Source of the DNA: Phoronis australis | Lineage: Eukaryota > Animalia > Phoronida | Assembly: GCA_002633005.1 (NCBI GenBank) | Contig: NMRA01000035.1 | Span: 719,260-783,259, forward strand | Length of the DNA: 64,000 nucleotides | Direction of reading: 5' to 3' | In this document: positions 3,621 through 64,000 of the stretch, piece after piece | Layout of the letters: each line of letters opens with the position of its first letter | Position numbering within the stretch: the stretch's first letter is position 1 | Made by a program: the position numbers and the translations under genes | The notes under the pieces: generated by a model | Told to the model about the DNA's origin: nothing | Seen by the model: only the letters and a program-made list of their open reading frames with translations | The model's database searches: none

Positions 3621-4682
3621 AACCTTGATCATCAATTTTACTCTCCAGTACTACTTCTCATTACATTTTCAGCAAAACATGCTTCTAATCTGAGTAAGGA
3701 AATTTTTAGACAAATTTTGTAAAGGTAAGTGGTCTAAATTATTACATGGAGAGGCCCCAGAGACTCAACTAAATTCACTAAATGCTCTGCATATCTGTGT
3801 CTTTGTTTACTCAAAAATATAGCGTTATTACTTAATCTTTTTTCCAAGCTCTTCTTTTACTAATGACATTTTCTAATTATTTATTTGAAAACTGAGCCCT
3901 TGTTTCAATGCAAATAAATTGGGTCCTTTTCATGCAGGGCACCCCCAGAATAGATTTCTTTTTAATGGCAAGATACAATTTGACACGTCTCAAAATTTTT
4001 AAAATGTCACAAGGAAGTCTCAATTGTCACAGCTTTTTGGTGCTTTTTGCATGGATAAGTCGCATCAACTTTGCTTTCGACACATATGTGAGACACAATA
4101 TTCGTCACTGATAACAATGAATTCCATAATTTTATATTTTGTGAAAAAATGAACCACCACTACATGCACCATAAAATAACTGTAAATCCAACAAAACACT
4201 AACACTAAATATGTGGCACGTAATTCTCAAAATATCACAAAACGTCACAGAATTTCATACAAATTTTGTCCCAGAATGTCACACCGTCACAGGGAATCCA
4301 TTCTCTGCGCCCCTAATATAAGGGCTAAGTCTTTCATTAATATTTTGAATTCAGTATAGTGTTTACTGTCACCATGTATTATAAGCCAAAAATCAACTCA
4401 GTAATCACAATAATATAGCATTCAAAAATACCATAAGTGTAAAGCACAAGTAAACTAAAAATGCAGTGAAATGTTAAGGAACATATTCAAGTCCCACTTT
4501 GGGACTGGATCCTATAACCACGTAAAGGAGACCTGATTAAGTGAAGTCTAAAAAGTTTCATAATGATTTCATTTGACCAGCAGGCAATATATATACATAT
4601 ACATATATATATTATATGCTTAATCATACTGCCAATAACAGACATATAGATTTATGGTAGCATACTCATTTTTGGCGTTTAC

Positions 4683-20502: not shown

Positions 20503-21236
20503 GTGAGAATATAGTGGTTGTTTTAATCTTGAGAAATCAACCTCATAACCTCGTCATCTGTGTGCATTACCTTTTAAATAACAAAGGAAATAAATAGCCT
20601 GTACATTACACTATTTACTGGTTTTATGGATTCCGTTTGGGTAGATACAGTGATACTTAAAGTTTGTTAATTGTACTACAGAAAATTCCGTTTTCGTGGA
20701 CACCGACCCCTTGTATTAAAATCCAGTTCTACTGGGCGGTCATTTCTGCGTTTATTCAGTGTAAACGTTTACAAAATATATTGCGAGGACCAATTTTTTC
20801 GGGCTCCGATTCGAGAATCAGATAGGTAATGCAATGTCAATGTCAAATCGATGTGATTGTATTGTGACCTCTGACTGTGTTTGACTTTGCAAATTTTCAC
20901 GTCATTAAATGACGTGAAAATTTGCAAGTGGCAACTGGGCAGTGTTATTGTTACACAGACGCAAGGCACAGTTATGACTGAAAATAACTTGTTAAAGTTG
21001 TGAGGCCTTGTGTTTTCAGCATGCATTCTCCCCTCCCCCTTACCCCTCAGTTGGTCATTTGACTTTAAACAGGGTTTGGAAGTCCATGCATACTGAAATT
21101 GTAGAATTTAGTGTCGTCACACTGGAATTGCACATCAGAATATAACCTGCATGTTTTGACATTGCAATCATGTGAGAATTTGTTTTCAATCCAACACTAT
21201 CAATGTACATACTTCATACTATTTTCTGAATCGTCA

Positions 21237-21358
21237 GTCATTGATGATGATTCCAAAAATGTATTACCGTACTCGACAATAACCCCATATTATCTTCCGT
21301 GGGAAACTGGTTGGATATAGTGGTCCTGATTTTGAGATCCAGGTGATCACTGAATGAC
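21237..21358 (+). ncRNA. Candidate intronic box C/D snoRNA (copy A)
   Basis: gtcat-tg-ATGATGA (box C, 21244-21250) ... CTGA (box D, 21350-21353)-atgac with a 5-bp terminal stem. It lies in the sense strand of a ribosomal-protein intron, ~110 nt before the 3' splice site. Confidence 0.6.
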
Positions 21359-21469
21359 GGGCTAAAACTTGTGGATAAAACTGGTTCTCAAAATCAGGGA
21401 CTGCTTTATCCGCCCAGTGCCCTTGTATGGTAAATGGACTTTAGCTTAATTTTTGTACTTGTTTTTTAG

Positions 21470-21535
21470 GCTGATACTTGTACGCTAAGGACAAGGAAGT
21501 TCCTGGTCAACAATCTCCTCCGCAGAAAGCAGATG
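21470..21535 (+). CDS. RPS24: RPS24 exon 2, copy A (ADTCTLRTRKFLVNNLLRRKQM)
   Basis: Acceptor ttttag and donor gtaagt; 66 nt; eS24 motif RTRKF...LLxRKQM. Confidence 0.92.
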
Positions 21536-22175
21536 GTAAGTTGAAAATGTGTGTCTACAATTTTTAATTCTTTTACTATTTCTGTTGTCCTTTAAGTTAA
21601 ATATCAGACACGAAATGAAGGTTTGGTTCTTTTCTGATATAGCTTAGAGATTTTTTGCAATCTGGACCATTTTTGATTTTTCTACAATATTGTGTCATTG
21701 GTGCAACCCAGTTAGGGGTCAAAGCCTGACAAAGTGTAATGGTGATAAAAGCCAGCATTGATCAGGATAATGAATCTGAATGAATATTATTTAGAATTGA
21801 GATACATATGGAAATGAGGGTTAAAAAAAGTGGTGAAGGTGTGTTCAAATAAGAGGGAATTTGGGTTGGTTTTCTTTGTGGTTTTGAGTTGTCTGCCTAT
21901 CAAAAAACAGCTGTGTTAACAAAGAAGATGCGGATGGAAACGGTGAACGTGATGGGGAGCTACTGGAAATATGAAAAATCTAATGTGGCAATGGCTTGCT
22001 GAAGTAGCGTATCATCAGTCGCCTATTACTTTCCAATAGTTGGCTGGCCCAGGTTTGGGACAGCTGTCTTGGTGTGTCTTTTCAGGCCATATATTTGAAG
22101 TATTGTTACGAAATTTGACAAATGTGTTTCTAATGGCAGATATTTGGACAGTTTCGACTGCTTATGTGCCCCTTA

Positions 22176-23103
22176 CAGGGCTTGGAATTTTCCGCGGAAA
22201 CGCGGATTTCCGCTTTTTTGAAATGTGCTTTCCGCTTTTTTTATAATATTTCCGCGTAAAAAAATCGGATTTGATATGAAATTTCCGTCAAATTCCTTTC
22301 TTACCGCGGCGTTGCAGACGACGTTCACCTCGGAAAGCGGAAGTTGCTCTTTATGTTTGGAGGAATGTAAATTGTCAACATTGCCGGGGCATCTGGGTAA
22401 AGCATGGTGTGATTCTCAATGGCGGCTCGTGTTATTGTTAAGCGCGGCGACAAATACTACCGCTCTGCAGCCAAAATTGTGCGGGTTGGGAGTGGACGGG
22501 TGAGCGAAAAGGACGCAGACGCATGNAAATCTTTTTCCACAATGAAACCATCTCATTGAACTGACAATATGTCACTGAACCCCATTTTTTCGTTTGTTTT
22601 TAAACTCAAGTCAAACCCCGACCGCGCACGTGCGGGTGTCATATCAAGAAGCCTAAGTGATACTAAAAACTGCAGTGAGTTAGCACGTGCTTTAGTCGTC
22701 TGCCCTAATTCATCGAAACGACTTGGCGCCGTCATCAGATTTCATTTTATGGACAATTTTGTTGCGAATGGACCTGGGTTCTAGCAGCATATATGTCAAA
22801 ACACTCGAGCTGAAATTTGGCGACAAGGTGCCCGCGGCCATTACGAGGTTAATCAGTTTTCCGCGATGTGGCGTATGGAGAAACATGGTGTCCGATATTT
22901 AGGTTCTCCGAAGGTTTGGTTGTTGTGTTTTTTGAAGATCAGTCGGAACATAAATATGGCTTTCAGTGACAAGATATAGTAACAGAACAATTCCGTGAAG
23001 GTAAATCTTTATTTCAGCAAAGAATTTACAACAATCCTTAGTATTTTCAATTAAATATAATGCAAAATGTGCCAAAACGTCCGATAATTAGGTCACTTGA
23101 CTG
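22176..23103. mobile_element. hAT-like element fragment between the RPS24 duplicates
   Basis: Begins CAGGGCTTGG with subterminal ttccgc repeats; no matching right TIR seen; single N at 22526. Confidence 0.6.
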
Positions 23104-37501: not shown

Positions 37502-38007
37502 CTAGATTTTAGACAAAATACTGGTCAAAGATGGTGCATTTGCAAGAGGGTTTAGATATAAACACCGCAGCCTTATGAACACCTGTTGCTTTTCCATGAC
37601 AGTGAGTTGATGGCATACACCAAACCGTAAATTTTAAAGGCATACTTTCTGAATTTACAGCAACTGGACAAAATATTGTTTTTTCGTTGTGACAGCTAAT
37701 GCTTTTAACAGCAAAAAATTAAAGTGAATTACTATTAGGGTTATAAAATTCTAATTACAGAGTGGCTTACCCACCTACCAAACTTACCTGCTACATCCCC
37801 TTCATTCTCGGTCATGACAATCAATTTGTCTTCCGCCTAGCACTCATGATGGGGAATTCTGGTAATTTTGTCTGAATATTTTTGGCTTGTACAGTAGATC
37901 TAACCTAGAGATTTCTAAAAGCACTAATATTTCCAGCAATTAACACAAGTACCTTACTCGTAAGAGTATTCAGTACGCAAACCACTTGACTAGGTTATTA
38001 CACTTAC

Positions 38008-38670
38008 AGAAAAATCAAATCTGGCTCTGGCTTTCTTCTCACTCCAGTTAAACTGCTTGACAGCCCGAGCCGTCTCAATGCTGAGTTCTTTAGCTAACTG
38101 TTTGATCTCAGGTTGAAGAAGTTCCACACGGGCCAAGATATACTGGGAATAGATGGCAAAGGGTAACGTCACAAACGAACGCAGTGCAAACGTTGTCAAC
38201 ATTATACTGGCCCACCACGGTAGGCCTGTGTAAGTGTGCACCCATTCTAAAAGCCGCTGGGCATACGCAAAAGGTGTGAGATCCGGTGAAAACCAATTGT
38301 TGTAGGTTTCACGAGAAAATGTCCGTGTCTGAGTAAATACATTATGCCCTGAACAGACAGGATCCACATTTGACCGTGATATACTGTGGTAATGTCTCCG
38401 ATGTGATCTACTACATAGTAAGTTGACAGATTGTGGTTGAGCTACACCGAGGAGGTGTTTTTGTACATACAGAACATTCCTATTGTTCACGTGATGTTCA
38501 GCTACATTTGTCAACTTTGTTCTTGATCTCTCTGATTCACTGTGTCCAGAAATTGTCTGCCACGTATTTGTCCTTAGATACTGCTCACATGTGCAGACAT
38601 GCCTGCTGTAGTTTGACAAAACGTTGCTTCCGTGTCTCTCCCAACTAGCTATGTGCGATAATAGTCGCAT
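38008..38670 (-). CDS. COX18: COX18 (Oxa1/YidC family insertase) first coding exon
   Basis: MRLLSH... presequence-like start, then HTYTGLPWWASIMLTTFALRSFVTLPFAIY motif; donor gtaagt; 663 nt; in-frame stop upstream of this ATG. Confidence 0.93.
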
Positions 38671-39241
38671 GTTTCTGGATACTTCCACAGGCTTAAATGA
38701 CGAACACTATGCTTCATTGATTTTGACACCTCCTGAAAATTAAAACCAAAAATATTTTTAACAAATATAGAAATTTAAAAATGCAATAAATAAATAGTGG
38801 GCATTGGTAAAATATAGTGGTCCCAGGGTTCTGTATCCTTCTCAAAATATGGGATAACACATTCTACCACTTATTAGTATATCGCATACATTTGCACTAA
38901 TGCCAAGATCAGCCCCGAGTTTGCTGGCAGTGATGTATGTAAGTTCAGCCGAGACTATAGGAGCCATTGAATATTACCTATTTTGTGCCACCTAAGAACT
39001 CTATCCAAGTACTCTGGTCAATCCCACCAGGCCTGACCAGGGGCAGGGGCAGCAAAGCGACTATGCCAGCCATACTGATGAAATCATAGGCGTCCTTAGC
39101 TTTTGGTCGTCCCGATATACTTTCCTGGGGTGCACAGGGGACGGAAGCTAAGGATGCCTGTGGCTGAAATGAGGCAGAAATGACCATGGCATGTCATGAT
39201 GACAGGACTTTTCAGCTGTCTACAAAGCAGTCTACACTCTN

Positions 39242-40168
39242 AAATGTCCGTGTCTGAGTAAATACATTATGCCCTGAACAGACAGGATCCACATTTGACC
39301 GTGATATACTGTGGTAATGTCTCCGATGTGATCTACTACATAGTAAGTTGACAGATTGTGGTTGAGCTACACCGAGGAGGTGTTTTTGTACATACAGAAC
39401 ATTCCTATTGTTCACGTGATGTTCAGCTACATTTGTCAACTTTGTTCTTGATCTCTCTGATTCACTGTGTCCAGAAATTGTCTGCCACGTATTTGTCCTT
39501 AGATACTGCTCACATGTGCAGACATGCCTGCTGTAGTTTGACAAAACGTTGCTTCCGTGTCTCTCCCAACTAGCTATGTGCGATAATAGTCGCATGTTTC
39601 TGGATACTTCCACAGGCTTAAATGACGAACACTATGCTTCATTGATTTTGACACCTCCTGAAAATTAAAACCAAAAATATTTTTAACAAATATACGAAAT
39701 TTAAAAATGCAATAAATAAATAGTGGGCATTGGTAAAATATAGTGGTCCCAGGGTTCTGTATCCTTCTCAAAATATTCATTCTACCACTTATTAGTATAT
39801 CGCATATATTTGCACTAATGCCAAGATCAGCCCCGAGTTTGCTGGCAGTGATGTATGTAAGTTCAGCTGAGACTATATGAGCCATTGAATATTACCTATT
39901 TTGTGCCACCTAAGAACTCTATCCAAGTACTCTGGTCAAGCCCACCAGGCCTGACCAGGGGCAGGGGCAGGGGCAGCAAAGCGACTATGCCAGCCATACT
40001 GATGAAATCACAGGCGTCCTTAGCTTTTGATCGTCCCGATACACTTTCCTGGGGTGCACAGGGGACGGTCAGAAGCTAAGGACGCCTGTGGCCGAAATGA
40101 GGCAGAAATGACCATGGTATGTCATGATGACAGGACTTTTCAGCTGTCTACAAAGCAGTCTACACTCT
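39242..40168 (+). repeat. Near-identical tandem duplicate of 38317-39240, including the 5' half of the COX18 first coding exon
   Basis: Direct repeat joined at a single N (39241) with few SNPs and indels; likely an uncollapsed haplotype. Confidence 0.9.
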
Positions 40169-47522: not shown

Positions 47523-50500
47523 CAGGTCACAGAGAACTGTCGCGGTCTTTCTGACGTTACTGATACTCAGTGTAGAGAGAAAACTTGGTTTGAAAAGATT
47601 TTGGCGAGGCTAAAAATCGCTCACAGTCGCCATTTCCTTTCGGATTTCACCTGAATTTAGCTGTCTGTAGGGTAAATTAGTATAAGTACTGGCACTGTTC
47701 AAAAATTCATTAACTGATTTCAAGAGATTACCTGATGAAGTTTTTGGTGGTAACTTCAGTAGGTAAAATTTTGGTTAACTATTGAATACAAATTACAATG
47801 TTTGACGAGATACTAAATTTTGAACTGCTGTTCTAAAACATAATTATCGTCGTAGACTGCTATGTATTTTCAGAGTTTTGGTGAATTTTCATGAAATTTG
47901 ACAGATAGGTGACAATTGTAACTGAAGATGAACATGTTGCAGTAAAATAGTTTATTATGATAAATGTAAAACTTCTAAATTTTAAACTTAAATTCATGTC
48001 TAGAAAGACTTTAATAAACTTATAGTGATGCAGAACAATACTAAGGTACAGCGACCCCTGGCGAGGACTAGCATGATTTATAATTTTGAATGCAGATGCT
48101 TGTATGCATCCCACTCATGGTAAATCAGGATGTGCCGGTCTCGTTATAAGTTCTTAATGGCTGTCACAGAGGCATAAGTTCTTATTTGCAAGTCCATCAA
48201 GAACGATTTCCTTCATGCTCATGGTTTGCGAATAACTTGTACTCAAATAGTAGAAAGTACTTAATCTATTTTGTATTTTGATAGTGACCTGTCACATTTT
48301 AGATATGCGCAGCCTCTAATGTTGTAGCTTTACTTTCTTTAGATGAACATGTCTCTTCAATTTTATTGTAAATAGTCTAATATTTACGATGGACACTTGA
48401 ATATAGTTTTTTTACCGTGTCCTTGTTATGTAGCATTCCCGTGGACCAAGAAATTTCCAACATCACTGTCTGATCTAGAATCAATTTGCCAAACAAGCCT
48501 ATTATGTTGCCACACAATGCTGTGGTAGTAAGGGGTCAGAGGTTACAGTCACACAAAGTAATCAACTGGTGAATTGCTGAGGTCTGGGTTTATCATTGAA
48601 ACAAAAAGATGATTATAAATATTAAGCTATCAAAACATTCAGTTTAAAGTGATATTGAAAACATAATGAGAACTCAGTGGGGGTAAGAATGTTATTTCAG
48701 TCATGTAACTGGAAACTTTAGGGGTGTGTGCATTTTATTAAGCAACAGTTTTGAATATGAAGTTAAATGTATTCATAAGGACTTGGTTGGCAATTTTTGG
48801 CAGAGGAAGTCCGTGTTGAAAAGTATGAAATATTTCTTGTGCATTTATATAGGCCAAATGTCGATGCTGATTTTTTCAAAATATTAAAGATAAAATGACC
48901 CCATCCAGCATTCACAAAACCCTTTGACCTATGTTCATAAAATTTTGCACGTGTTCCATTCCGTCATGAATGGGACAGTAAGAGCGAACTTTCAGGCGGA
49001 TCTGACGTTCAGTGCGCCCTCTAGTGGCAATTTTTTTTTACGTTTAACTCCATCTATCAACCAAACCATTCTAAGGATGATTGTAAAAATTGGCACATGT
49101 GTTCTCAGTGTGATGAGGAAGGTTGACGATGACGACTTTGACTACTGGCAGTTTTGCTTTTTTTCCATAGCTGTATCTCCTAAATCCACAGCAGGGTCTT
49201 TATTAAATTTAGCATTAAGTGTATTTATATGAAGTCGACAACAGATGACAAAGACTGTCAGTTGCATACGAAAACTGCTGTGGCCCCTTGTGGCAATTTC
49301 ATTTTTTTCCATTTTCCTTTGTTTCTCTGAAATTCTTTGGCATAGTTTTATGAAATTTAGGTAAATGGCTTTTTATTAAAGAAACAATGGCATGTTCCTG
49401 TTTTCAGATGGATTCGATGTACTTTGCGCCACCTAGTGGCCATTTTTATCATACAAAAAACACCCCTTAATGCACACTGTTTGCTGTGCATTTGTGGGCA
49501 CATTTCATCACTCTGCGGTGCTCTTGTTGTTATGTTGTTCAAAATTATAATCTAGATTGCTTAAATTACAACAAAACAAACCTAATTCGAAAAGGGAATC
49601 TGAAAAGCTCTTTTAATCTTCTGGATCCATTGAGAATAGCAAAGTCCAAAAAACATGCTTTACATCGTTTAAAAAGACTCCTTGCAAAATGTCTAGATTA
49701 GATTATTTTCTAGTCAGCAATGAGTTTTTTAACATGGTGGAAAACGTAACTCTTAGTCCAGGTTACAGAACACAACACTCAAGTATTTGTCTTTCGTTTA
49801 ACTGTCAGTAGCAATTTTCAAAAAGGGTGCAGTTTCTGACGATTTAATAATTCTCTGCTAGAAGATAATCATTATGTAACCTAAGTTAGAAATGTCACTA
49901 TCGAAGAGTATTCTGCTCTACCATACAATAAGGAACACTTTAATGAAGAATTATTGAAGGATATTTACCTGATTGTTGATGATCATTTTTTTTTATTTTT
50001 TGATGTACCTTTGAACAACATCAGGACAATTACTATAACATTTTCTGTTGCAATGTAAAAATAAAAACAGCTTCAGGAGGAAGTCAAAAAATAGAAGTTT
50101 TTCAAATATTGTTTCAAAAAAATAAAAGCATCAGTTTAAGAAAGTTCATGCAGGAATGCAATGTTCATTTGGAAAAAAGTGAGAAAATTATGTAAAAGGC
50201 TAAAGTTTGAAGAAGGTGATAAGGCAACAATTAAAGTACTTTTGTGGCTTAGAAAACTAAAACTTGGTTAAGATAACAATAACTAAGGTGATAAAGCCCT
50301 CTGGTAAACCTTTGACAAAACAAAAAGAGAGTTTAAGTGAATGAAAAAAATCTTTTTACAAAAAATATATGCTTCTAGAGACAGTTCATGTGGAATTCAG
50401 AATATCAGTGACACAGTGGAAACTCAAAATATCCGAAAAAATTAGCGATATTGATCGAGCAAGTTTAGATACTGGTATTAATCTGCAAGAAAAAAACTCC

Positions 50501-51532
50501 GAGAACATGAAAAATAACTTAAGTTCATGGGTTGATGGTTTTGCAATGTCATTGTTTATGTTGTGCTTAACAACTGAAATGTGTACTGTAATGCCAGATA
50601 CAAAATTTATGACTTGAGTGCCAACAAAAGATTGCACGAACACTTTAATTAACAATTGTTACCTAATCTTGAAAACGCCTTTCATCTGGAGTTGAAACTG
50701 AATGGGGCAGAGCTTTTGACTATTCTAAGAAACTATTTGTGTTAAAAAACAATGGAAAGCAAGCACATTGTACACATGTATAAATTCGAGCTGGCCCACT
50801 TGACAGAATTTCATTTGAACAATCCGGGAAAGAACCCGTTAGGTGTGTGAACCATTTTGCTCCGTGTGATCAATGCCAAGCAAACTCATGATATATAACT
50901 TGCTTTTGTAAAATGTAACAATGGTACATTTCTCTCATGTGCTTTCCAGGTAAACTGTAACAATTACATAAAATGCTACAATTTAGGAGAGGCCTAGCAA
51001 GGTACATGATGTAACAATGGTGTAAAATGGAAGCTGTTGGCTGAGAGCATTGGGCTTTTTGAAAATTATCTTGACCAAAAATTTGCTTAATAACTGATGC
51101 TTGCTGATTGGGGGCATGGTTTTTATGTATACATTTCTATTTCAGGTATGGAGAGAAGTTCCTAGGATGGGATGCAATATTGTCATCAACCATCAGCCAA
51201 TTTACTGCATCCATTGATGAATGTCGTTGCATCTCCGCTTGCCGTCATCAACTAGTCGCATGTAAAGTACATCAAAGGAATGGCACCTGCCTGCCATCAA
51301 CAGTGCATAGTACGTATGAGCTGAAGTTGGGTTATTTAACGTCAAGTGAGTGCCAGTTTGCCAAAAATTTAGTTTTCAAAGCATACGCATTTTGTTCACC
51401 TTTCAGTAACTCGTAATTTCGTGTAAATCCATTTCGCAGTTCACGACAAACACCCGAAGTACTTTGGCTGATGGGTGAGGAATTCAAGGTCATAACCGCT
51501 AATTTTGTCATCATGTCGGGGAATTCCAGGTN

Positions 51533-52816
51533 AGGAGAAACGCAGGTCATTTATTATGACTGATAAAGGTACAGAAATATGAGTGTTTTATCTTTTGCGT
51601 GAGGCTGGAGTTAAATGGGATGTTGAGCAGTAAAGTGTGAACTATGAGGAGAGTGTCTCTTGGGTGTCTCTGGTTTAGTAAAAACTACAGAAACAACAGG
51701 ACAAAGTCCTGCCATGAAAAAGGTAAAACTTTCCTGTCGAATTTTTGACGACAGCTTGTCAATCAAGTAAAACGGGTAAAGTCTTTATGTTGAGTTTTCT
51801 TAACAGCGAATATTACTCGAGTAGAGATTATTGTCATTGCTACCAAACTGAAGAAACGGTGGGGCATTAAATTCAGACAGACTCGCTGGGTGGGTTGATG
51901 ACAATTCTTTCGTTGGTTAATGAATTTGTAACATGTGACGATTTAATGGTGAAGTGGTATGAAAGTGGCGAATCTGTGAAATGCTATAACTAAGTGAAAC
52001 TGTTGAGTAACGAGGAGTGGCAGGAAACATGATTACTGAGAATTAAGGTTAACCCTAAGACACGTGATAATCATCAGCCAATAGGAGCCAGGAGCTGACC
52101 ATACTTGAGGCACATGACAGAAACAAACCAATAGTGAGGCTGCTAGTGAAATGTCCTAGTGCATCGTGTACAAAATGACCGCATGCGAATCTACTCAAAG
52201 GATTAGTGGACCAGTCGGAACAAAGGAAAAAGGGGGTATAAGTAAGACGAGTCTATATTGTCACATAAATATATTAAACGAGTGAAAAACCATTTATGTT
52301 CGAAGTATGTCCCAAAAATGATAGATGCGTTGCAAGCTCCGTTTCCAGAGATAAAAAGGAGAGGTATATAGGAGAAACGCAGGTCACTTATTATGACTGG
52401 TAAAGGTACAGAAATATGAGCGGTATATTTTTTGCATGAGGCTTAAGGTAAAAGGGATGTTGAGCAGTAAAGTGTGAACTATGAGGAGAATGTCACTTGC
52501 GTGTCCCTGGTTTAGTAAAAACTACAGATTTTTTTACGACAGCTTGTCAATCAAGTAAAACGGGTAAAGTCTTCCTCCATGTTGAGTTGTCTTAACAAAA
52601 AATATTATTTGAGTATAGATTATCGTCATTACTAGTAAACTGAAGAAACAGCGGGGCATGAAATTCAAATATGCTCGCTGGGTATAATCATGCCTGGTGG
52701 GCTGATGACAATTCTTCCATTGGTTAATGAATTTGTAACATGTGACGATTTAATGGTAAAATGGTATGAAAGTGACGAATCTGTGAAATGCTATAACTAA
52801 GTGAAACAGTTGAGTG
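51533..52816 (+). repeat. Diverged tandem duplication (51533-52008 / 52370-52816) around a promoter-like spacer
   Basis: Colinear homology with many substitutions and indels. Confidence 0.85.
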
Positions 52817-55718
52817 ACAAACCTAAGAGCGAAACAAAAATGAACCGAAAACACGTAAAAATAAATGAACCAATAAAACACGAGTTAAGGACAAAAAACT
52901 TCCAAATGGTATAAATCAAACGAAACTATGAAAAATTCATGGACCAATATAATGGGAAACTTTAATGAATGCGTAAAATATCACAAGGCCTTTAGGGTGT
53001 GACGAAGCAAAATGAATTTGTAAAATGAGAAGGTGACACATAAAGACATCTGTGTGCTGGTATAAACAAATTGAAAAAGGCATGAACCCGTAAAGTGTTA
53101 CATCTAAACACACTGGTTGAGTGTGATGAATAAAATGGGGGAAATAATTGAATAATTGATAGGACTAAATGAAGCCGTTGAGTGCGATGAAAGAAAGTGT
53201 GAAAAATAAACGAATAGAGGAAAGACGCCAAATATGTAAAGTGGACTGTTGCACTTTACCATTAATCTGGGGAATTTTTCTGTCAAAATCCCATTTTGAG
53301 GATATGAAGGCAAAGAAAATGGGCTCATGACAATTGTCTAAATGCAGCGGTTAATGAATTTGTAACACATGATGAATTAAGGGTGAAATAGTTTGAAACT
53401 AGACATAAAATGCTACGAGTAATTGAAACCATTGAGTGTGAAGCTAAATGCGAAAAATAAATAAAGTAAAAAATGTGAAAATGAAAAATTAATGGACTAA
53501 TGGAATGGGAGTCTTTAATTAATGTGTAAAATGTCACAAACCTTATACGGTATGACGGAGCAAACTGAATGCGAGGTATGATTAATTGGAACTGTTCAGT
53601 GTGACGAAGCTAAATGCGAAAAATAAAAGAACTCAATATGAAAATTAATAAACCAAAAAAAAACAAGTTAATGACATAAACCTGCAAAATAGTTTAAAAT
53701 ATGAAAAATTAATGGACTAATGGAAGGAGAGACTTCTATGGATGCAAAAAATGTCACGCACCCTATAGGTTGTGACAAAGCAAAATGAACCTGTAAAATG
53801 CGAGAAAAGCATGAACCTCTAAAAATAAAAATGAAACAACAAAATAAGAATGAACACACAAAGAAATAAACTGGCAGAGAGATGAAATAATGATGAACAA
53901 GCAAAATGAGTGTGACATCTTTCTGTTGCTACAAAGCAGTGACGCCAAATAAATGGCATCATGATGTGAAAAAATGGTGAAATAGTGCATAACTAATGAA
54001 TCCAAAAATGAAGTCCATATCAGTGTGACGAATCTATATGCGAAACATAAATTTGACATATGAAAATTAGTAAACGAATAAAAGTTCATGGCAAAAACTA
54101 AATGCACAGTAATACAGATCCGACGAAACCATGAAATGTGAAAAATTAATAAAATGATGAAATCTGAGACCATGATGGTATTCTGTCATTCAGCAACTTT
54201 TCCAGACACGAGGGGTTCTGAGCGTGCAATATCATCTAGCTCCTTTGTTCACTGCCCAGCACAGTCCTTTGTCCCACACAACAACAAGCAGGCCAATTAT
54301 CTCCCCGGGATTCAAAGGGTTACTGAAACCTGGAAGAATAGATTGTCTTAACTTCTGTTTTGGTTGGGCGATTTTGGTGATTCAAAAACTAAACATGATC
54401 AGCATTTGACAAGGAATTCAGAAAAGATATTTGTTTATGTCCAAATATGTTATAACTTAACTTTCATTTTTAGCAGCACAGCCCAGTCAGACTAATTAGA
54501 GCAATTATCGAACAAAAGACAGCCAGCCCTCCAACCATCAATGCCAGAGTGGAGTTAATCAATCGTGTAAGATATTGGCTACAGGAGTGGTCTTCCCAAC
54601 TTGTTGGGCTATAGAATTGAACAAGTTGGGAGCAACGGGAAAACGCCATAATGCTTTAATGAATGGCTAAAATGCCAAGAACAAACAAAATCTCCTCGCA
54701 AAAACTAATGAAACTGCAAAATGTGACCGAAATAATAAGTGAACCCCATATTATGTGAAAATTAATAAATGAATAAAGGACAAGTTAATGGCAAAAACTA
54801 GTAGTAAAAATCAAACGAAACTATAAAATATGAAAAAATAATGGTGATATAATGCGTGACATTAATGATTGGTTAAAATGTCACAAACAAAAGCCCTATA
54901 AGGTATGAGGGAACAAAATGAAGCTGTAAAATGTGATAAGTGAACCATAAATATATCCCCTTCTGCTAGCAGACACCAGGTAATATCAGAAAAGTGTCAA
55001 TTAACCTGTATTATGTGTCAAATTAATGAACCCGCCAAATGCAATGAGTGAGTGAATCCCTTAAATTATTTAAAGAACCTGTTAAAATGTGAAAAAGTTG
55101 TATAGTGCAGTGGGACAATTGAATAGATCAGTGAAATGGTTTGGAGAGCATTAATGGTACGATATTTCCCAAATTAAAAATGTCCCCTAAAAATATCACA
55201 GTCATTAAGCTGGTGTAGCATAATGACAGAATGTTAAAATGCGAGGAAGCAAAATGCTAAATATCAGTAAACCTAAAAACTGCAGTAAACAGTGAACCCA
55301 TGAAATACGAGTTAATAAAAAGTAATATGTCGTACTCGTTCAAGAAACATCACAAAAACTAAAAGTTAATGGAGATCATGTGTTAATTCTCAAAATTGAA
55401 TGAGCCCATAAAAAGACTAAATGCAGTATCTCGAAGGGGTGACTTGACTTGTGTACACCAATTGTTATCAGAATGTTTGGAAATTTGAATGGTAAAATGC
55501 ATCATATATTGAAGAAATAGTGCATCAAATTAATGGAGTCCCATGAAGTATAGCAATAATATCTGACTAAATGATGTATCTCCAAGGAGTTATTGTGTTC
55601 TGGAGTGAACAAATTCATGAAAAGTAATGAATTAATACAGCTGAAATATGTTAAACAGAAGGGAAACATACAAAGGCTTAGAAAATTTATATCAAAGATG
55701 TAAAGATTTGCTAAACAA

Positions 55719-56027
55719 GTGAAAAAGGAAAGTAGGGATGGTGAATGAGCAGGAGACAACAAATTCTATAGCTGGCTGACTTTGAATTCAGCCCAAGGGA
55801 ACATGTTTATCAAACAGATTTCTTCACAACTACAGTATTCTTAAAAGTAACTTTGGTACCCAGCTCTTGCTAAATCTAAAGTTCATTCACCATCCTGAGG
55901 CAAAGGGCAATGCAGCATTTTTTTCTTTTCTAATACTCATTATTCTCTGCAGGGAGAATTGACCTGCTAACATTTACTTGGGTTTACATTTATTTTATGC
56001 TGCACCAAGTGGTGGTTCCTTTTTCAC
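55719..56027 (+). ncRNA. Putative structured RNA module, copy 1
   Basis: Nested helices gtgaaaaaggaa/ttcctttttcac, ggatggtgaatgag/ttcattcaccatcc, agctgg/ccagct, ggctga/tcagcc and tgcagcat/atgctgca. Confidence 0.6.
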
Positions 56028-57826
56028 AAATAAACTGATAAAATGATAATGAGCACTCAATATTTTACAAAAGGTACTCAGTGAAAACTCAATTGGTATC
56101 AAGCAACTAGTAAAGTATAATTGACAGTGAGCCCAATAACAGGTCACGTGCGATGAACTATAAATTCTCTAAAAGGTAATCAATTGATGAATTACCAGGG
56201 TGCTAATTAATTAACCAGCCAAAATAAAAATGGACAAACAAAATAAGAATGAACACACAAAGAAGTAAATTGATCGAGATTATGAAATAATGATGAACAA
56301 GCAAAATGAGCGTGACATCTTTCTGTTGCTACAAAGCAGTGACGCCAAATAAATGGCATCATGATGAGAAAATATTGTGAAATAGTGCGTAACTAATGAA
56401 TCCAAAAATGAAGTGCATGTCAGTGTGACGAAGTTCATGGCAAAAACTTCATGTACATTAGAATAGATCAGACGAAACCATAAAATGTGAAAAATTATAA
56501 AATGATGAAATGCAACAAACAAACAAAATCTCGTCACAAAAACTAATGAAACTGCACAATGTGACCGAACTAATAAATGTGAAAATTAACCAAACGAAAC
56601 TATAAAATGTGAAAAATTAATAAGGTGATGTAATGTGTGACATTAACGAATGGGTAAAATATTACAAAAAACAAAATCCTCTATAGCGTTTCAGGGAACA
56701 AAATGAAGCTGTAAAATGTGATAAGTGAACCATAAAAATATCCCCTTCTGCTGGCAGAAACCAGTTTATATCAGAAAAGTGTCAATTTACCTGTGTAATG
56801 TGCCAAATTAATGAACCCGCCAAATGCAGTGAGTGGGTGAATCCCTTAAATCATTTAAAGAACCTGTTAAATTGTTAAAAAGTTATATAGTGCAGTGTGA
56901 CAATTGAATGTATCAGTGGTTTGGAGAACATTAATGGTACGATGTTTCCCCGAATTAAAATCTTCTAAAAATAGTCAATAAGCTGCTGTAGCATAATGAC
57001 AGAACGTATACAGTGTGAGGAAGCAAAATGCTTAATATCAGTGAACCTAAAAACTGCAATAAACAATCATATGGTACTTGTTCAAGAACCAAATACCAAA
57101 GGTTAATGGAGATCATGTGTAAATTCTGAAAGGTGAATGAGCCCATAAAAAAAACAAATCCAGCCAAAGATATCATGTAGCCTTAGCATCTCAAAGGGGT
57201 GACTTGACTTGTGTACACCAATGGTTATCAGAATGTATGGAAATTTGAGTGGTAAAATGCATCATATATTGAAGAAAAAGTACATCAAATTAACGGAGTC
57301 CTGTGAAGTACAGCAATAATATTTGACAAAATTATGTATCTCCAAAATATCATGAATCAACAGTAAATCCGGTATAGTATAACGGTAGAACCTATAAAAT
57401 CAACAAAAGCGTTGAGTTCAATGAAGTAAAGTGCTATAAATGAATTCATAAAATGTGAAAACCAAAAATCCCATGAAGTATGAGTTAATGTCATGGTAAA
57501 ATGCTATAAATAAACGAACCTACAAAATGCGAAAATCAAAGGTCCAATGAAGTATCACGAATTAATATCAGGGTTATCAAAGTCCTACAGTGCTGTTAGT
57601 CAATCGTGTCCCGCCAATGCAAGAGGTTAATGGAAATAATATTAGGGACAACTGACTGAACCCATCAAATGTCAGGAGTTATGGAATTCTAGAGTGAACA
57701 AATTCGTGAAAAGTAATGAATTAATACAGCTGGAATATGTTAAACAGAAACGAAATGTACAAAGGGTTATAAACTAGAAATGAAAAATGTATTAAATAAA
57801 CGGCGTTGCAAACATTTCTTAAACAA

Positions 57827-58139
57827 GTGAAAAAGGAAGGTAGGGATGGTGAATGAGCAGGAGACAAACGACAAATTCTATAACTGGCTGACTTTGAATT
57901 CAGCCCAAGGCAACATGTTTATCAAACAGATTTCTTCACAACTACAGTATTCTTAAAAGTATCTTCTGTACCCAGTTCTTGATAAATCTGAAGTTCATTC
58001 ACCATCCTGAGGCAAAGGGCAATGCAGCATTTTTTTCTATTCTAATGCTCATTATTCTCTGCAGGGAGAAGTGACCTGCTAACATTTATTTGGGTTTACA
58101 ATTATTTTATGCTGTACCAAGTGGTGGTTCCTTTTTCAC
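57827..58139 (+). ncRNA. Putative structured RNA module, copy 2
   Basis: Same helices as copy 1, with compensatory aactgg/ccagtt. Confidence 0.6.
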
Positions 58140-58320
58140 AACTTCTAAAATTATGGAATTCATTGTTATCACTGACAATTAACTTGTGTCTCCGATAGCG
58201 GATTTGCAGCGATGCCATATTGAAATTAGGTTAAAATGGTGCATTGTGGGTGCTGTGATCAGGATTCCGAAAGCGGCCATAGTAACAAGCATAATACGCG
58301 GTACGAGTGCGAAGAAAACT

Positions 58321-59292
58321 CACGGCGGATACACTTGTTGTGTTCCAGGCTGCTTCAAAAACAGCAAGAGAGATAAAAATCTGAGTTTTTATGTGTTCCC
58401 TGCAAACCAAGAACTTCGTGAAAAATGGATAAACAACATTAGGAGAGCTGGGAGTAAGGGGAGATTTAGCGCATTCAAACCAATGCGGGGCCATCTAGTA
58501 GGCAACACATAGCCCCTTGGTTGGCCATATAGGGGCTATAATACTTCCATTCGCTTTCTGTACTCATTTCATTACTTCAGTGTATTTTAAATGGGCCGTG
58601 CCCGGATTTGGTTTACCGATTTTGAGTTTTCACCTCACCTCGTCAAAAATGCATTCTACACTTAAAACTATCATTTAAAAAAACGCTTACTTTCATCATT
58701 GGTCCTTTCTACTTCTATGAATATCTTTAATGAAGCTTAGTTGGGAGACTTAAGTTGACTTTGGCGAAGAATTACAACTCCACTTTTTTGGTTGCCGTTA
58801 ATTTTATCATCGCGTGCGCGATAACCACAAAGCATGTCAACTGAATCACGTGAGTTAGGCAAAGGTTAGTGCGAGACTGAGCGACGCGCATGACGCTAGC
58901 GCGCGACACTCGGGTGAAACTTGTAAGATGTGTGTCCCTTCGACTTTTTATTCGTCAACATGCGTAATTTCACGAAACTTCCTCAAAATGGCACCCGGCA
59001 ACTCGAGCAAACCGTGACAGATTTTCATCGATTTGTTCCAAGTTTTGCTGACTAAATTGTATCCAGAGTCGTGGTTAGTGTTAATTATAACTCCGTGTTC
59101 CTATATGTATGGTTCATTTGATTTTATTTGCTGTATTTTGAAATGAGTAACTTTTTGTGAGGATGTACTATCGCCCCTGACTGCCTGCGGCATCCAGTGT
59201 GATGTAATTGCTTAAGGGCCATCGTACGTGTTTGCAGCGAACAGTTTCCTGGTGGAAAAAAGACGTATGAGAACAACATTTCGACGGATTTC
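58321..59292 (+). pseudogene. Disrupted THAP zinc-finger coding relic (transposon-derived)
   Basis: YTCCVPGC...LSFYVFP...REKWINNIRR...GH, then a 720-bp insertion, then RVCSEQFPGGKKTYENN. Frameshift at the junction and His->Gln at the C2CH position. Confidence 0.85.
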
Positions 59293-61696
59293 ATAGGTGA
59301 ATTTAAGGNGGCCCCCCCCCCCCCCCCTTGGCTACCACAAAAAGATAAAACCGAGCAAGAGCGTAGGGAAATGTTGAGTTTATTAATTAACCCCGGTAAT
59401 TAAAATTATACGGATGAAACAAGATTTAAATGTATGCAGTTATGCAGTTTTAGTGTTTGGTGGGGGGCTCAGATCCAATTTCAAGTGTTAAATTCGGAAC
59501 ACAGCGCATTCGTAACGGAACTATGGCTAAGTATGGGCTCTCCCGCGATATCCAAGGCAACCGGCAGTGGCGCTGCGCACTACGACTCCGTTTCTGTCAT
59601 CTGCTCCACTGTGCAATGAAGAAAATTTACTTCATTTTTTAAAGAAAATGGAACCTGAGTGACGATGAAAAAACAGAAGCTGCTGGTAAGATGTGAATTT
59701 TAATCGAAGCCTGAGTGAATCACTCAGAAACTCATAATTCTCTCTTTCTCAAACCTTAACTTAAGACGGTTTCCAAAGCAATCCCGTCATAATTGCCAAC
59801 ACGAAAAACGGATTTGGTCTTTTGGGCATTTGAAGACTATTTTAAATACAACAAATTTGTTAAGAACCGATTGCACAAAATTTAAAACGTGTAATAAGCA
59901 TTACAAAAAGAAGTAGGTTTCGCATGCAAACGCTGTGGACAATAAACAAGGTCTCTTATCATGAATTTAGTAGCTAAGCCGTGGTGGTGTAGTGGTAAAG
60001 CACGCGCGCTCTAGTTTTTCCTGTTTGACACGTTCTCTGTTTTTTTTGCCTTTTTTCTTGGATAATACTTCAGTGTGCTATGCGCATCTACAATCGTGGT
60101 TTGCGCAAATGCTTACAGCGGGACAAAATGTTGGGCCCCCCCTTGTGATATCCTAGATCCGCCACTGGATTTTCCTCTTAAAATTAATGTCTCTAGCATG
60201 TCCACGGCGAAAGCTACAAAAGTTAAGCAACCAAAGAANNNNNNNNNNNNNNNNNNNNNNNNNNNNNNNNNNNNNNNNNNNNNNNNNNNNNNNNNNNNNN
60301 NNNNNNNNNNNNNNNNNNNNNNNNNNNNNNNNNNNNNNNNNNNNNNNNNNNNNNNNNNNNNNNNNNNNNNNNNNNNNNNNNNNNNNNNNNNNNNNNNNNN
60401 NNNNNNNNNNNNNNNNNNNNNNNNNNNNNNNNNNNNNNNNNNNNNNNNNNNNNNNNNNNNNNNNNNNNNNNNNNNNNNNNNNNNNNNNNNNNNNNNNNNN
60501 NNNNNNNNNNNNNNNNNNNNNNNNNNNNNNNNNNNNNNNNNNNNNNNNNNNNNNNNNNNNNNNNNNNNNNNNNNNNNNNNNNNNNNNNNNNNNNNNNNNN
60601 NNNNNNNNNNNNNNNNNNNNNNNNNNNNNNNNNNNNNNNNNNNNNNNNAAGCAAAAGCACCATATCCATGAAATATGACAAAACGTGGAGGTAACCAAAG
60701 TCCCAATGTGGCACTAGTTCAAGAGATCATGTTGTCAGGGCAACACAAAGACTCGATTTGATTTGTGTACACCATAGATTATCAGAAAGCTCTTAACAGC
60801 CCCAAAGAATGTAGGAATATTTCAATGGTAGAATGCATCATGTATTGAAGAAAATGCATCACATTATATTGGAGCCCTGTGCAATTAAATGAGTCATGAA
60901 ATAAACAGAGAAATAAAGAAGCTGTAAAATTTAAGAAAGTAATGAACTCCTGGAACCTTGCGAATTAAAAAATGCATAATTCGTAGCCTGTCATGGATAG
61001 AGAAACATTTCAAGTGGTAAAGAACCCATGATATGCAAGAAATCAGTGGGGTCTTGAAGTACTGCCAAGTCAATGAAATTGTGAAATTTGTTTAAATCAA
61101 TGAATCTTCAAAATGTGTTGAATGAACAAATCCATCAGCAGGTAATAAAAAATCCAGGTGTAGAAGGCAACTTCAAGGGAATGTATTTATTTATTTGTTA
61201 AAGTAATTGGAAGCTGAAAATGTTATACTGGAGTCATGAAATGTGAATTAAACCACGTAAAGGTGAGAAATTATTGGTTCTGTGTAAAGCATCTTATTCA
61301 TGCAATAGAACAAATTAAAGGAAGGTGCAATAATATGTGACGAAATAATGAATCAAAAGCTATCACAAATTAATAATGAAATTATTATAGAGTGATTATA
61401 GAGCCTGCAAAATAAACAAAGGCATTAATTACAAGCAAGCAAAATGCTAAAAATAAATGTATCATGAGTTAATGTGAGGGTAATCAAAGTCCTAGTGTTG
61501 GATTTCGGAGGTAATAGGGACTACTGATTGAACCGATCAAATGCATTATAATTATTGAATTCTAAAAATTTCTGGAATGAACCAGCTCATGAGAAGTAAT
61601 GAATTAATACAGCTAGAATATGTTATATAGCAAGGAAATTAAAATCGAAAGAGTATTAAATAAACAGAGATATGACGATTTTTTTTTGTTTAACAA

Positions 61697-61966
61697 GTGA
61701 AAAAGGAAGGTAGGGATGGTGAATGAGCAGGGGACAACGAACTGAATAGCTGGCTGAATTTAAATTCAGCCCAAGGCAACATGGTTAGCAAAACCTTAAC
61801 CTTCTTTAATGTAACTGATGGTCCCAGCTTTGGCTAAAACTAAGACTCATTCACCATCCTGAGGCATAAGGGCAATGGAGCATTTTTTTCTTTTTCAATG
61901 TTCATTATTCAGCATTTAGCTGGGTTTATGATTTTTTGCTGCATCTAGTGGTGGTTCCTTTTTCAC
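61697..61966 (+). ncRNA. Putative structured RNA module, copy 3 (diverged)
   Basis: Helices retained while loops are shortened or diverged. Confidence 0.6.
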
Positions 61967-61972
61967 AACTTG

Positions 61973-62164
61973 CAAAATTATGGAATTCAATGCTATCACT
62001 GAACAATTAGTGCTGTGTATCCAATATGTGAGGAAAGCATCTTGTGTTTCTTCATTGAATGGTGCCAAACACCAAAATTATGGAATTCACTGCTATCACT
62101 GAACAATTAGTGCTGTGTATCCAATATGTGAGGAAAGCAACTTGTGTTTCTTCATTGAATGGTG
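61973..62164 (+). repeat. Two-copy 100-bp direct repeat
   Basis: caaaattatggaattca...cattgaatggtg at 61973 and 62073. Confidence 0.9.
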
Positions 62165-62884
62165 GCAAAAACCATCATATAACACGCTGAAATAACAAAA
62201 TGGGTGTCTTGATTTGTGTACACCTTTGCTTATCAGATTAATCTTATTACCCCCACAAGAATGGAGTAATGTATGATGGAGTGAACTAGACTGCCCTGAA
62301 TGGATGGAACAATAAAATGAGTCTGTAGAAGAAATTTGACTGATTGATTATCTGTTTTGGATACTTCAAGAAAGCCCCCTTACAAAAGACCATGTGAAAA
62401 ATCAGAAATGTGATAAATGGAGAGTGAGGATTGTTTGAAATTTGAAGAGAGAATAGTGAATAAACTGAATAACAAGCTAGATGATGATAATGTCTTATCA
62501 AGTGATTATGTTGCCTGAGCAAAAGGGCAACTTGATTTAACAACCCCACCAAAGAATGTATGGAAAAGTGAATGGTAGAATCCATCATAGATTAATTAAA
62601 GAAAACTGTATGACATTAATGGGACACTTGAAGGAGTCTGTAGATTGTCACGATATAACTGGAGTTGGTAAAAGAAAAAAGGCAAAAAAGCGTGAAAACA
62701 AAAACATGCTAGCAAAGGAAAACAGGCGGGAAAACGGGGAAAAGACTAGGAAACTAAAAAAGGCTGGAAATCTGAAAAAAGTGGAAATATGAAAAAGGAA
62801 GGAAACTAAAATGCGAGAAACATAAAATGGCAGAAATATTGAGTATCCATTTTGGTTTGTACGATAACATTTTGTAAATTTTTG

Positions 62885-63580
62885 TTTTTCTGCCTTTTAT
62901 TCTTTTCCCGCTTTCTTTTTCCCGCCTTTTATTCTTTTCCCGCCTTTTATTCTTTTCCCGCCTTTTTTCTTATCCCGCCTTTTTTCTTATCCCGCCTTCT
63001 TTATTCTTTTCCCGCCTTTCTCTACTTTTTCCCACCTTCTTTCTTTTTCCCGCTTTTTTTCATTTTCCCACCTTTTTTTACTTTTTCCAGCCTTTTTCCT
63101 ATCCCGCCTTTTTATTCTTCCCATCTTTTACTTTTTCCCGCCTTCTGTTTTTCCCTGCATTTTTTCTTTTTCCCGCCTTTTATTTTTTTCCCACCTTTTA
63201 TTCTTTTCCTACCAAACTTTTTTACTTTTTCTGGCCTGTTTTTGATTCTTCCCATCCTTTTTTGTTTTCCTGCCTCTGATTGGTGGATTCAATGGAGGCC
63301 TCTGATTGGTCAGTTCAATGGAGGCTTCTGATTGGTCGGTTGAAAGGAAGGCTGTGATTGGTCGGTTTATTGGAGACTTCGTCGGTTTTTCCCACCTTTT
63401 TTCCCCGCTTTTTTCATTTTCCCATCTTTTTTGCTTTTTCCAGCCTTATTCCTATCCCGCCTTTTTTATCCTTCCCATCTTTTATTTTTTCCCGCCTTCT
63501 GTTTTTCCCTGCATTTTTTCTTTTCCCTGCCTTTTATTCTTTTCCCGCCTTTTTCCCGCCTTTTATTTTTCCCCCCTTTT
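62885..63580 (+). repeat. Degenerate pyrimidine-rich minisatellite (ttttcccgcc core, ~18-bp period)
   Basis: Repeated ttttcccgcc/ttttcccacc; an inverted patch of the same motif lies at ~62670-62830. Confidence 0.9.
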
Positions 63581-63587
63581 ATTTAAT

Positions 63588-64000
63588 GGAGACCTCTGAT
63601 TGGTCGGTTCAATGGAGGCTTCTGATTGGTCGGTTTATTGGAGGCTTCTGATAGGTCAGTTGAAAGGAAGGCTGTGATTGGTCGGTTTAATGGAAGCCTC
63701 TGATTGGTCGGTTGAAAGGAGGGCTCTGATTGGTCAAATGAATGGAGGCTTCTGATTGGTCTGTTGAAAGGAAGCCTCTGATTGGTCGGTTCAATGGAGG
63801 CTTCTGATTGGTCGGTTTATTGGAGGCTTCTGATTGGTCAAATGAATGGAGGCTTCTGATTGGTCGGTTGAAAGGAAGGCTGTGATTGGTCGGTTTAATG
63901 GAGGCTTCTGATTGGTCAATTGAATGGAGGCCTCTGATTGGTCAGTTCAATGGAAGCTTCTGATTGGTCGGTTGAAAGGAAGGCTCTGATTGGTCGGTTT
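63588..64000 (+). repeat. 26-bp minisatellite (gaggcttctgattggtcggttcaatg-like), ~16 units, continuing past the window; 4 more units at 63270-63375
   Basis: tgattgg recurs every 26 bp. Confidence 0.95.

What the first reader, a model, noticed from the sequence alone, without database searches (positions are those of the whole stretch)
55719..61966. Triplicated ~270-310-nt multi-helix element with covariation: candidate undescribed structured RNA
Seen: three copies (55719-56027, 57827-58139, 61697-61966). A 12-bp closing helix (gtgaaaaaggaa/ttcctttttcac) encloses two domains. Domain 1 has a 14-bp helix (ggatggtgaatgag/ytcattcaccatcc), an inner helix agctgg/ccagct and a hairpin ggctga..tcagcc. 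Domain 2 is closed by tgcagca/tgctgca. Copy 2 changes both partners of one pair (agctgg/ccagct to aactgg/ccagtt). Copy 3 turns a G-U into G-C (ttcattc to ctcattc) and perfects the hairpin (ggctgaattt/aaattcagcc), while losing loop sequence and while its flanks are far more diverged. Imperfect pairs are mostly G-U on the plus strand, which points to a plus-strand RNA rather than a DNA palindrome. From memory I could not match it to RNase P/MRP, SRP, 7SK, telomerase RNA, snRNAs, or hammerhead/HDV cores. Inference: a selected RNA fold (stability element, ribozyme or RNP scaffold) of a lncRNA or mobile element.
Basis: partly seen in the sequence, partly recalled or inferred. Interest (0 to 1): 0.85.

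Follow-up and report, generated by a model that had tools for sequence, protein, structure and literature searches.

The report
Conserved RNA fold inside animal transposon
A 300-base stretch predicted to fold into a branched RNA is repeated many times in this animal's genome and read from one strand; it likely belongs to a DNA transposon family and likely protects that element's RNA, though neither the fold nor the function has been tested.

Summary
Its one double change lies in a helix that overlaps the hairpin by two bases and appears broken in most related copies. Copies 1 and 2 come from a local duplication. The triplet is a small sample of a large family: DNA contig depth on the helix strands and two junctions is 7.7 times that on the loops, suggesting hundreds of copies that keep these blocks. 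RNA reads over the element are 93-100% one-stranded and run through both edges, so it is an internal part of a longer RNA. A fourth, decayed copy lies in an animal-like contig in a bacterial assembly. That copy and a fragment at window 3946-4307 show hAT-like inverted ends 160-200 bases behind the fold. Best reading: a conserved RNA domain near the 3' end of a DNA-transposon transcript, likely protecting it with a U-tract triple helix. It fails the ENE, Fanzor and retrozyme membership tests. P1 never varies and P2 varies on one side only, so pairing is not proven by covariation; the mechanism is inferred.

The parts
55719..56027 (+). Copy 1 of the fold
57827..58139 (+). Copy 2 of the fold (reference for the coordinates below)
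61697..61966 (+). Copy 3 of the fold; lacks 14 and 23 bases of loop; one G-G break in P5
57827..57838 (+). P1 5' strand, purine-rich; pairs with 58128-58139; invariant in 3 of 3 window copies, no substitution among the 40 variant rows shown
57843..57857 (+). P2 5' strand; pairs with 57994-58008 (15 bp); variants 57846 A>G and 57857 G>A keep pairing on the plus strand
57858..57863 (+). Candidate P2b with 57976-57981 (defined after seeing the variants; one break in copy 3 and one in L006)
57885..57906 (+). Hairpin P4; the common variant 57906 C>A adds a seventh pair; loop is self-complementary; disrupted in L006
58009..58021 (+). Conserved unpaired junction between P2 and P5 (13 of 13 in copies 1 and 3, 12 of 13 in L006)
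   Evidence: depth peak
58022..58029 (+). P5 5' strand; pairs with 58110-58117; common variants 58115 T>C and 58117 C>T strengthen it; 8 of 8 paired in L006
58030..58043 (+). U-tract with a single C (U6-7, C, about U6 in most related copies); candidate third strand
   Evidence: role inferred
58049..58056 (+). Candidate pseudoknot strand with invariant 58120-58127 (chance of such a match 0.34); second candidate 57971-57975 with 58090-58094 (chance 0.06)
   Evidence: hypothetical
58140..58183 (+). Conserved tail behind the fold; continues as 62114 onward in other copies (joint at depth 1034); doubled as a 100-base tandem at 61973-62174
51150..62650 (+). Approximate extent of the non-coding, A/G-skewed, internally duplicated repeat that holds the three copies; RNA reads one-stranded; no Pfam family at cut-off in 43 of 43 frames scanned; no terminal inverted repeat found
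   Evidence: limits approximate
58184..60240 (.). Unrelated high-copy insertion(s) with a THAP-domain fragment (58183-58512) between copies 2 and 3; RNA reads on both strands
3946..4307 (-). Internally deleted family member: left inverted end at 4307-4294, TGTGAC repeats, 3' part of the fold (4204-4142), tail, worn right end at 3946, flanked by a 6-base duplication with one transition

Best explanation
The element is a conserved, predicted three-way RNA fold in a multi-copy, one-strand-transcribed repeat that is likely a non-autonomous hAT-like DNA transposon family, and it likely protects the 3' part of the element's transcript through a predicted U-tract triple helix. Shown: the helices in sequence, the multi-copy family, conservation of helix strands and junctions over loops, one-stranded reads crossing both edges, and inverted ends 161-196 bases behind the fold in one subfamily. 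Inferred: that the fold forms in cells; that the plus strand is the RNA (library convention not calibrated on a known gene); that the long 51-63 kb form belongs to the same transposon; that the U-tract after P5 lies in the major groove of an A-rich duplex, either P1's own purine strand (7 U-A-U, 1 C-G-C and 2 U-G-C triples in register) or a poly(A) tail, and slows decay. Selection would have acted in transposase-expressing lineages, from which the non-coding copies derive. My odds by step: transposon-borne 0.7, RNA fold under selection 0.6, stability by triplex 0.35 overall.
For: Depth on conserved blocks 7,954-22,414 against 1,067-2,534 on loops, ratio 7.7; single-locus contigs show 26-75. 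Copy 3 against copy 1: 90 of 96 paired and 136 of 173 unpaired positions identical, p 0.0009 (partly circular). All 7 of the 37 shown in-element variants that fall in the core helices keep or extend pairing on the plus strand. First mate on minus in 95%, 93% and 100% of depth, 96-98% over 54.9-57.9 and 60.9-62.9 kb against 41-50% in inserted repeats, and about three times more RNA per DNA depth. Left end at 4307-4294 is the exact reverse complement of the right end of the L011 copy, at the point where their homology stops; its first 7 bases equal those of Hermes (PMC3030943, passages); repeated short motif at both ends as in hAT elements (PMC10368747, passages); ATTAAA about 20 bases before the right end in both. 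ENEs lie behind the transposase gene of a rice hAT element (PMC13541005, passages). A pyrimidine third strand with U-G-C triples is among the tolerated forms (PMC7583470, passages).
Against: No compensatory change in P1, P2 or P5. Transitions in the long helices favour the plus strand only 4 to 1 (p 0.19); 8 to 1 (p 0.02) needs P2b, defined afterwards. The L006 copy has 3 of 15 P2 pairs broken without compensation, two extra A in P1, an interrupted U-tract and z -0.19. The closed two-sided U-rich loop of an ENE is missing: the 3' U-run varies (58102, 58105 T>A) and no upper stem closes it. The triplex register has almost no statistical weight, and it conflicts geometrically with the first pseudoknot if helices stack. 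No transposase and no inverted end were found around the 51-63 kb form; only 6 of the 8 target-duplication bases expected for hAT are seen. Only 1 of 138, 4 of 157 and 0 of 44 reads are 99% alike to copy 2, so this locus itself is not shown to be transcribed. Reads are laid through shared words, which hides variants inside conserved blocks; 66 of 106 variant rows were not shown.
Confidence: 0.35

Rival explanations
1. The fold is a scaffold bound by a protein of the transposon family supplied in trans, as Fanzor 'ghost' loci keep their RNA without the gene; the RNA helps the element spread.
For: Sequence-level invariance of helices and unpaired junctions across diverged non-coding copies suits protein recognition; it lies near a right inverted end; ghost loci keep ends and RNA, and mollusc Fanzors sit in cut-and-paste transposons (PMC10432273 and PMC10711439, passages).
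Against: Fanzor RNAs include the right end and run into the flank; this fold stops 161-196 bases short of the end. No such protein found nearby. No discrete RNA ends.
Confidence: 0.2
2. The blocks are conserved as DNA: inverted binding sites for a transposase or host factor. Pairing is a by-product and transcription incidental.
For: No compensatory change in the main helices; minus strand folds as well; L006 breaks pairs; an unstructured upstream block is as well conserved; inverted repeats are common in this window.
Against: Several nested, unrelated helices with G-U-type variants on one strand; conservation starts at the first bases of P1 (depth 1,623 to 9,347); one-stranded RNA above the level of passive repeats.
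Confidence: 0.2
3. It is a repeated module of a host long non-coding RNA family (a protein-binding scaffold, as recalled for NORAD or Firre), a piece of which was captured between transposon ends.
For: The 11-kb form has no ends found, is A/G-skewed and motif-rich, has CCAAT and TATA-like boxes at 52.0-52.4 kb (by eye) and one-stranded reads; tandem units each carry one fold.
Against: Depth suggests hundreds of copies in several subfamilies, with dispersed and decayed members; the TGTGAC motif of the transposon ends recurs on the same strand through the long form (13 places in 49-64 kb).
Confidence: 0.17
4. It is an undescribed self-cleaving ribozyme that cuts tandem transcripts into units, like hammerheads in retrozymes.
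For: Local tandem units with one fold each; invariant unpaired junctions; two possible pseudoknots.
Against: No Rfam ribozyme match to E 10; no place where many molecules begin or end, and many reads continue upstream of P1 into related flank; no circular joint across the element among the joints shown. Depth is low (up to 75), so weak cleavage would be missed.
Confidence: 0.08

Closest known systems
ENE and double ENE stability elements of transposon RNAs (rice hAT TWIFB1, Arabidopsis Evade), MALAT1/NEAT1 triple helix
   Same: U-rich tract next to a helix, with a single C in the U-run; position behind the body of a hAT-like element and before a possible poly(A) signal.
   Different: About 300 bases and branched rather than a stem-loop; no closed two-sided U-rich loop; the A-rich strand lies 5' of the U-tract and is already paired; reads continue past it. 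The passages read name plants, fungi, slime mould and a fish retrovirus as transposon hosts, not invertebrate DNA transposons.
Fanzor omega RNA / right-end RNA and ghost loci
   Same: Conserved non-coding structure near the right end of a eukaryotic cut-and-paste transposon, kept in copies without a gene.
   Different: Does not include the right end or run into the flank; several times larger than the 75-80 bases given for Spu-1; no Fanzor gene seen.
Non-LTR retrozymes of animals
   Same: Non-coding tandem units that each keep one RNA fold (10.64898/2026.07.22.740005, part 1 of 5).
   Different: No hammerhead; units of 1.3-2.4 kb; inverted ends of a DNA transposon; no sign of cleavage or circles.
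hAT DNA transposons (Hermes, hobo)
   Same: End begins with the same 7 bases as Hermes; short repeats near both ends.
   Different: No transposase found; only 6 of 8 target-duplication bases recoverable; ends seen in one subfamily only.
7SK RNA (resemblance recalled, not tested by alignment)
   Same: A long helix closing a domain, followed by a short purine-rich linker and a U-run.
   Different: No Rfam match; an outer helix encloses the U-run; reads cross the supposed 5' end and the U-run.

Membership tests
ENE / double ENE | Closed internal loop with U-runs on both strands | tested here: not met
   5' U-tract conserved, 3' U-run only 3-5 U and variable (58102, 58105 T>A); no upper stem common to the copies
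ENE / double ENE | G-C pairs directly beside the U-rich loop (PMC12501189, passages) | tested here: not met
   The pair next to the tract is A-U; nothing closes the other side
ENE / double ENE | Near the transcript's 3' end, ahead of poly(A) or an A-rich tract | tested here: inconclusive
   161-196 bases before the right end, with ATTAAA about 20 bases before it, in L011 and the 4-kb fragment; no poly(A) loose ends or end pile-up among those shown
ENE / double ENE | Triplex formation and RNA stabilisation | not testable with these tools
   Needs melting, probing and reporter assays
Fanzor omega RNA | Scaffold includes the right inverted end; guide comes from the flank | tested here: not met
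   Fold ends 161-196 bases inside
Fanzor omega RNA | Fanzor gene in the family | tested here: inconclusive
   None in 43 of 43 frames scanned at 50-63 kb; no genome held
Retrozyme / known small ribozymes | Hammerhead or other known catalytic core | tested here: not met
   No Rfam ribozyme match to E 10
Retrozyme / known small ribozymes | Self-cleavage or circular RNA | tested here: inconclusive
   No end pile-up or circular joint at depth up to 75
hAT DNA transposon | Short terminal inverted repeats beginning CAG | tested here: met
   Window 4307-4294 against L011 4870-4883, 14 of 14; not found for the 51-63 kb form
hAT DNA transposon | 8-base target duplication | tested here: inconclusive
   6 bases with one transition beside a worn right end
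hAT DNA transposon | Subterminal repeats | tested here: met
   TGTGAC at 5 places in the 362-base fragment, near both ends
hAT DNA transposon | hAT transposase in an autonomous member | not testable with these tools
   No genome held
MITE whose ends are the fold's own helix P1 | Unrelated flanks and target duplications at P1 | tested here: not met
   Flanks are homologous among window copies and in read loose ends
7SK / Pol III small RNA | Discrete 5' end and termination at the U-run; Rfam match | tested here: not met
   Reads cross both; no Rfam hit

The most novel reading that the evidence does not exclude
An animal DNA-transposon family carries a 300-base, pseudoknotted RNA of its own, with a triple helix whose A-rich strand comes first, that is bound by an element-encoded protein and aids transposition: a new class of transposon RNA beside ENEs and Fanzor RNAs, shared by at least two animal genomes.
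Probability: 0.13. Interest if true: 0.85.

Novelty: new variant of a known kind. Interest (0 to 1): 0.5.

Why it matters
Cut-and-paste DNA transposons are not thought to need a large structured RNA; the known cases are short ENEs in plant and fungal elements and Fanzor RNAs. A 300-base fold kept by many non-coding copies in an animal would extend this to a larger architecture and to animal hAT-like elements. Hundreds of natural variants make the structure cheap to test by covariation once the genome is at hand. If it proves to be DNA-level, it is an ordinary unclassified repeat.

Tried and rejected
No genome is held for the window, so copies could not be collected; family evidence comes from two read lays. 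Rfam: only chance matches (best E 0.83); no tRNA. Exact-pattern scans: 0 hits in 5 of 5 viral scans; 3 of 3 metagenome hits were chance; 4 of 5 genome hits were chance and one, L006, was real. 400 further genomes of the phylum of the assembly holding L006: no match in those searched. Run search: no RNA holder listed; RNA runs came by species label. nhmmer found no further full copy in the window or L011. Coding origin of the A-rich region: no codon periodicity (33/27/26), no Pfam family at cut-off (one frame, 61916-62077, not scanned). A 3' splice-site reading of the U-tract: no joint there. Recalled look-alikes checked by eye and dropped: HDV-like, twister, telomerase pseudoknot, RNase P/MRP, H/ACA, Sm site, kink-turn. 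No covariance model was built: four copies, two nearly identical and one decayed. Literature searches showed no paper on such an element; one search returned 0 papers. Repbase and Dfam could not be searched, so the repeat itself may be catalogued. PMC4864102 was not held; no supplements were read. Earlier-findings look-ups by sequence and place were empty.
Full report
Setting. The window is intron-rich animal-type DNA: an RPS24 exon and a THAP fragment by Pfam, many repeats, no tRNA. No whole genome is held. The lineage was not determined.

The observation. The three copies are at the stated places and fold better than shuffles (z -3.34, -2.96, -2.95). P1 (12 bp) is identical in all three; P2 (15 bp) differs only at its last pair. 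The claimed covariation is weak. The inner helix and the hairpin share two G's. The one double change is matched by 177 of 500 shuffles. Copy 3 carries a G-G break in the domain-2 helix. Copies 1 and 2 lie in duplicated units that are 81-92% alike in the flanks and 93.9% in the fold. The minus strand folds equally well, and strong stems are common in the window.

The family. Laying DNA contigs of run X1 on copy 2 at 80% likeness gave depth 7,954-22,414 on three blocks (P1 and P2 5' strands; P2 3' strand, junction, P5 5' strand and U-tract; P5 3' strand to P1 3' strand) and 1,067-2,534 on loops, a ratio of 7.7. Single-locus contigs show 26-75, which suggests some hundreds of copies; the tool warns that summed depth is no copy number. 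Conservation begins at P1 (1,623 just upstream, 9,347 on it) and tails off behind it. Joints in X1 skip whole units (55558 to 57337, 57367 to 61459, 58183 to 62114), so the triplet and the THAP insertion are local.

Variants. Forty of 106 variant rows were shown, 37 inside the fold. The 7 in core helices all keep or extend pairing on the plus strand: 57846 A>G and 57857 G>A in P2, 57976 T>C and 57978 C>T in P2b, 57906 C>A in P4, 58115 T>C and 58117 C>T in P5. All are one-sided. Counting transitions from all sources by hand, the long helices favour the plus strand 4 to 1 (p 0.19), or 8 to 1 (p 0.02) with P2b, which I defined afterwards. Two pseudoknots fit all three window copies, but their chance rates are 0.34 and 0.06. 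The junction below P2 resembles a bulged-G motif (recalled, untested). Reads are laid through shared words, so variants inside conserved blocks are under-sampled.

Transcription. In three RNA runs of the same species label, the first mate lies on the minus strand in 95%, 93% and 100% of depth over the fold and 96-98% over the surrounding A-rich region, against 41-50% on inserted repeats; RNA per DNA depth is 7.6-8.0 against 2.3-2.6. In most stranded libraries this means a plus-strand RNA; I could not calibrate it on a known gene. Levels are low. No place shows many starts or ends, and many reads continue into related flank upstream of P1. The fold is therefore internal to a longer RNA. Most reads come from other copies; only 5 of 339 are 99% alike to copy 2.

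A fourth copy and the ends. One of 5 hits of a 19-base pattern in bacterial assemblies was real. Its contig, L011, has microsatellites, a minisatellite, a histone-stem-loop-like match and no long gene outside the minisatellite, so it looks like animal DNA in that assembly; whether it is the same species is unknown. This copy is 74-80% alike, keeps P5 (8 of 8) and the junctions, but has 3 of 15 P2 pairs broken, two extra A in P1 and z -0.19: a decayed copy that gives no covariation and counts against a constraint at every locus. Its tail matches window 4204-3947 at 74% over 258 bases. Where that homology stops, L011 4870-4883 is the exact reverse complement of window 4307-4294, about 100 bases upstream of the fragment. 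The match alone has E 0.55; its position makes it convincing (my estimate, about 1 in 1000 or less). The fragment 4307-3946 thus has a left end, TGTGAC repeats, the 3' part of the fold, a worn right end and a 6-base flank duplication with one transition. The end starts with the same 7 bases as Hermes (PMC3030943, passages); hAT elements make 8-base duplications and have subterminal repeats (PMC10368747, passages). The fold ends 161 bases (L011) and 196 bases (fragment) before the right end, with ATTAAA about 20 bases before it. No such end was found around the 51-63 kb form, though TGTGAC recurs there on the same strand.

Mechanism. ENEs lie behind the transposase gene of a rice hAT element and protect RNA by U-A-U triples with poly(A) (PMC13541005 and PMC7583470, passages; PMC12501189, passages). 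The position and the conserved U-tract with one C suggest the same job here. The architecture differs: no closed U-rich loop, and the only conserved A-rich strand is P1's 5' strand, upstream and already paired. The tract can be set on P1 as 7 U-A-U, 1 C-G-C and 2 U-G-C triples (sequence), which would explain why P1 never varies, but this register carries little statistical weight. I put this at 0.35. A scaffold for an element-encoded protein (0.2), DNA-level sites (0.2), a host lncRNA module (0.17) and a new ribozyme (0.08) remain open.

Comparison and novelty. It is not an ENE, a Fanzor RNA (PMC10432273 and PMC10711439, passages), a retrozyme (10.64898/2026.07.22.740005, part 1 of 5) or a MITE bounded by P1, by the tests listed. 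Rfam has no match. Nine literature searches (listings only, apart from the papers named) showed no description; repeat databases were not available. Three earlier scan findings on triple-helix mobile elements in prokaryotes are a parallel idea, not support.

Verdict. A real, family-conserved, transcribed fold in a likely DNA-transposon family; pairing unproven by covariation; function inferred. New variant of a known kind, interest 0.5.

Noticed in passing
window 49053-49448: One unit of a very high-copy repeat (DNA depth 56,000-82,000) with strongly one-stranded RNA (depth 170-290) and a joint from 49448 back to 49053 in 700-1,000 reads per run: a transcribed tandem unit of about 430 bases or a circle. 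No unusual folding (z 1.0), no Rfam match; holds several CTCF-like motifs (recalled).
   Followed up: partly
window 51183-51481: 24-base inverted repeat about 250 bases apart, followed by the GGAATTCA motif also found behind the fold; one-stranded reads; overall z 0.27.
   Followed up: partly
window 52040-52370: Two CCAAT boxes, E-boxes and TATA-like motifs at the start of the A-rich region; a very high-copy motif near 52325. Possible promoter.
   Followed up: no
window 62650-64000: Arrays of a 17-18-base unit with an E2F-like motif (recalled), partly inverted, and a 26-base unit with a CCAAT box.
   Followed up: no
window 57885-57906 and 61752-61771: The hairpin loop is self-complementary in both forms (perfect in copy 3, with G-U in copies 1 and 2), as in kissing-loop dimer signals; not kept in L006.
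   Followed up: no
window 37990-38706 and 39212-39613; about 42.5-46.7 kb: Duplicated exon (COX18-like, name recalled; Pfam gave none) and another 2.1-kb duplication; may be haplotype copies in the assembly.
   Followed up: no
L011 (G001:C55) 1-11896: Contig in a Spirochaetia assembly that looks like animal host DNA; a repeat at 4930-5260 resembles a mollusc tRNA-derived SINE (recalled) and has no match in the window.
   Followed up: partly
window 57711-57750: Block about 80 bases upstream of P1 that is as conserved between copies 2 and 3 (36 of 40) as the helices, without evident structure; absent from L011.
   Followed up: no
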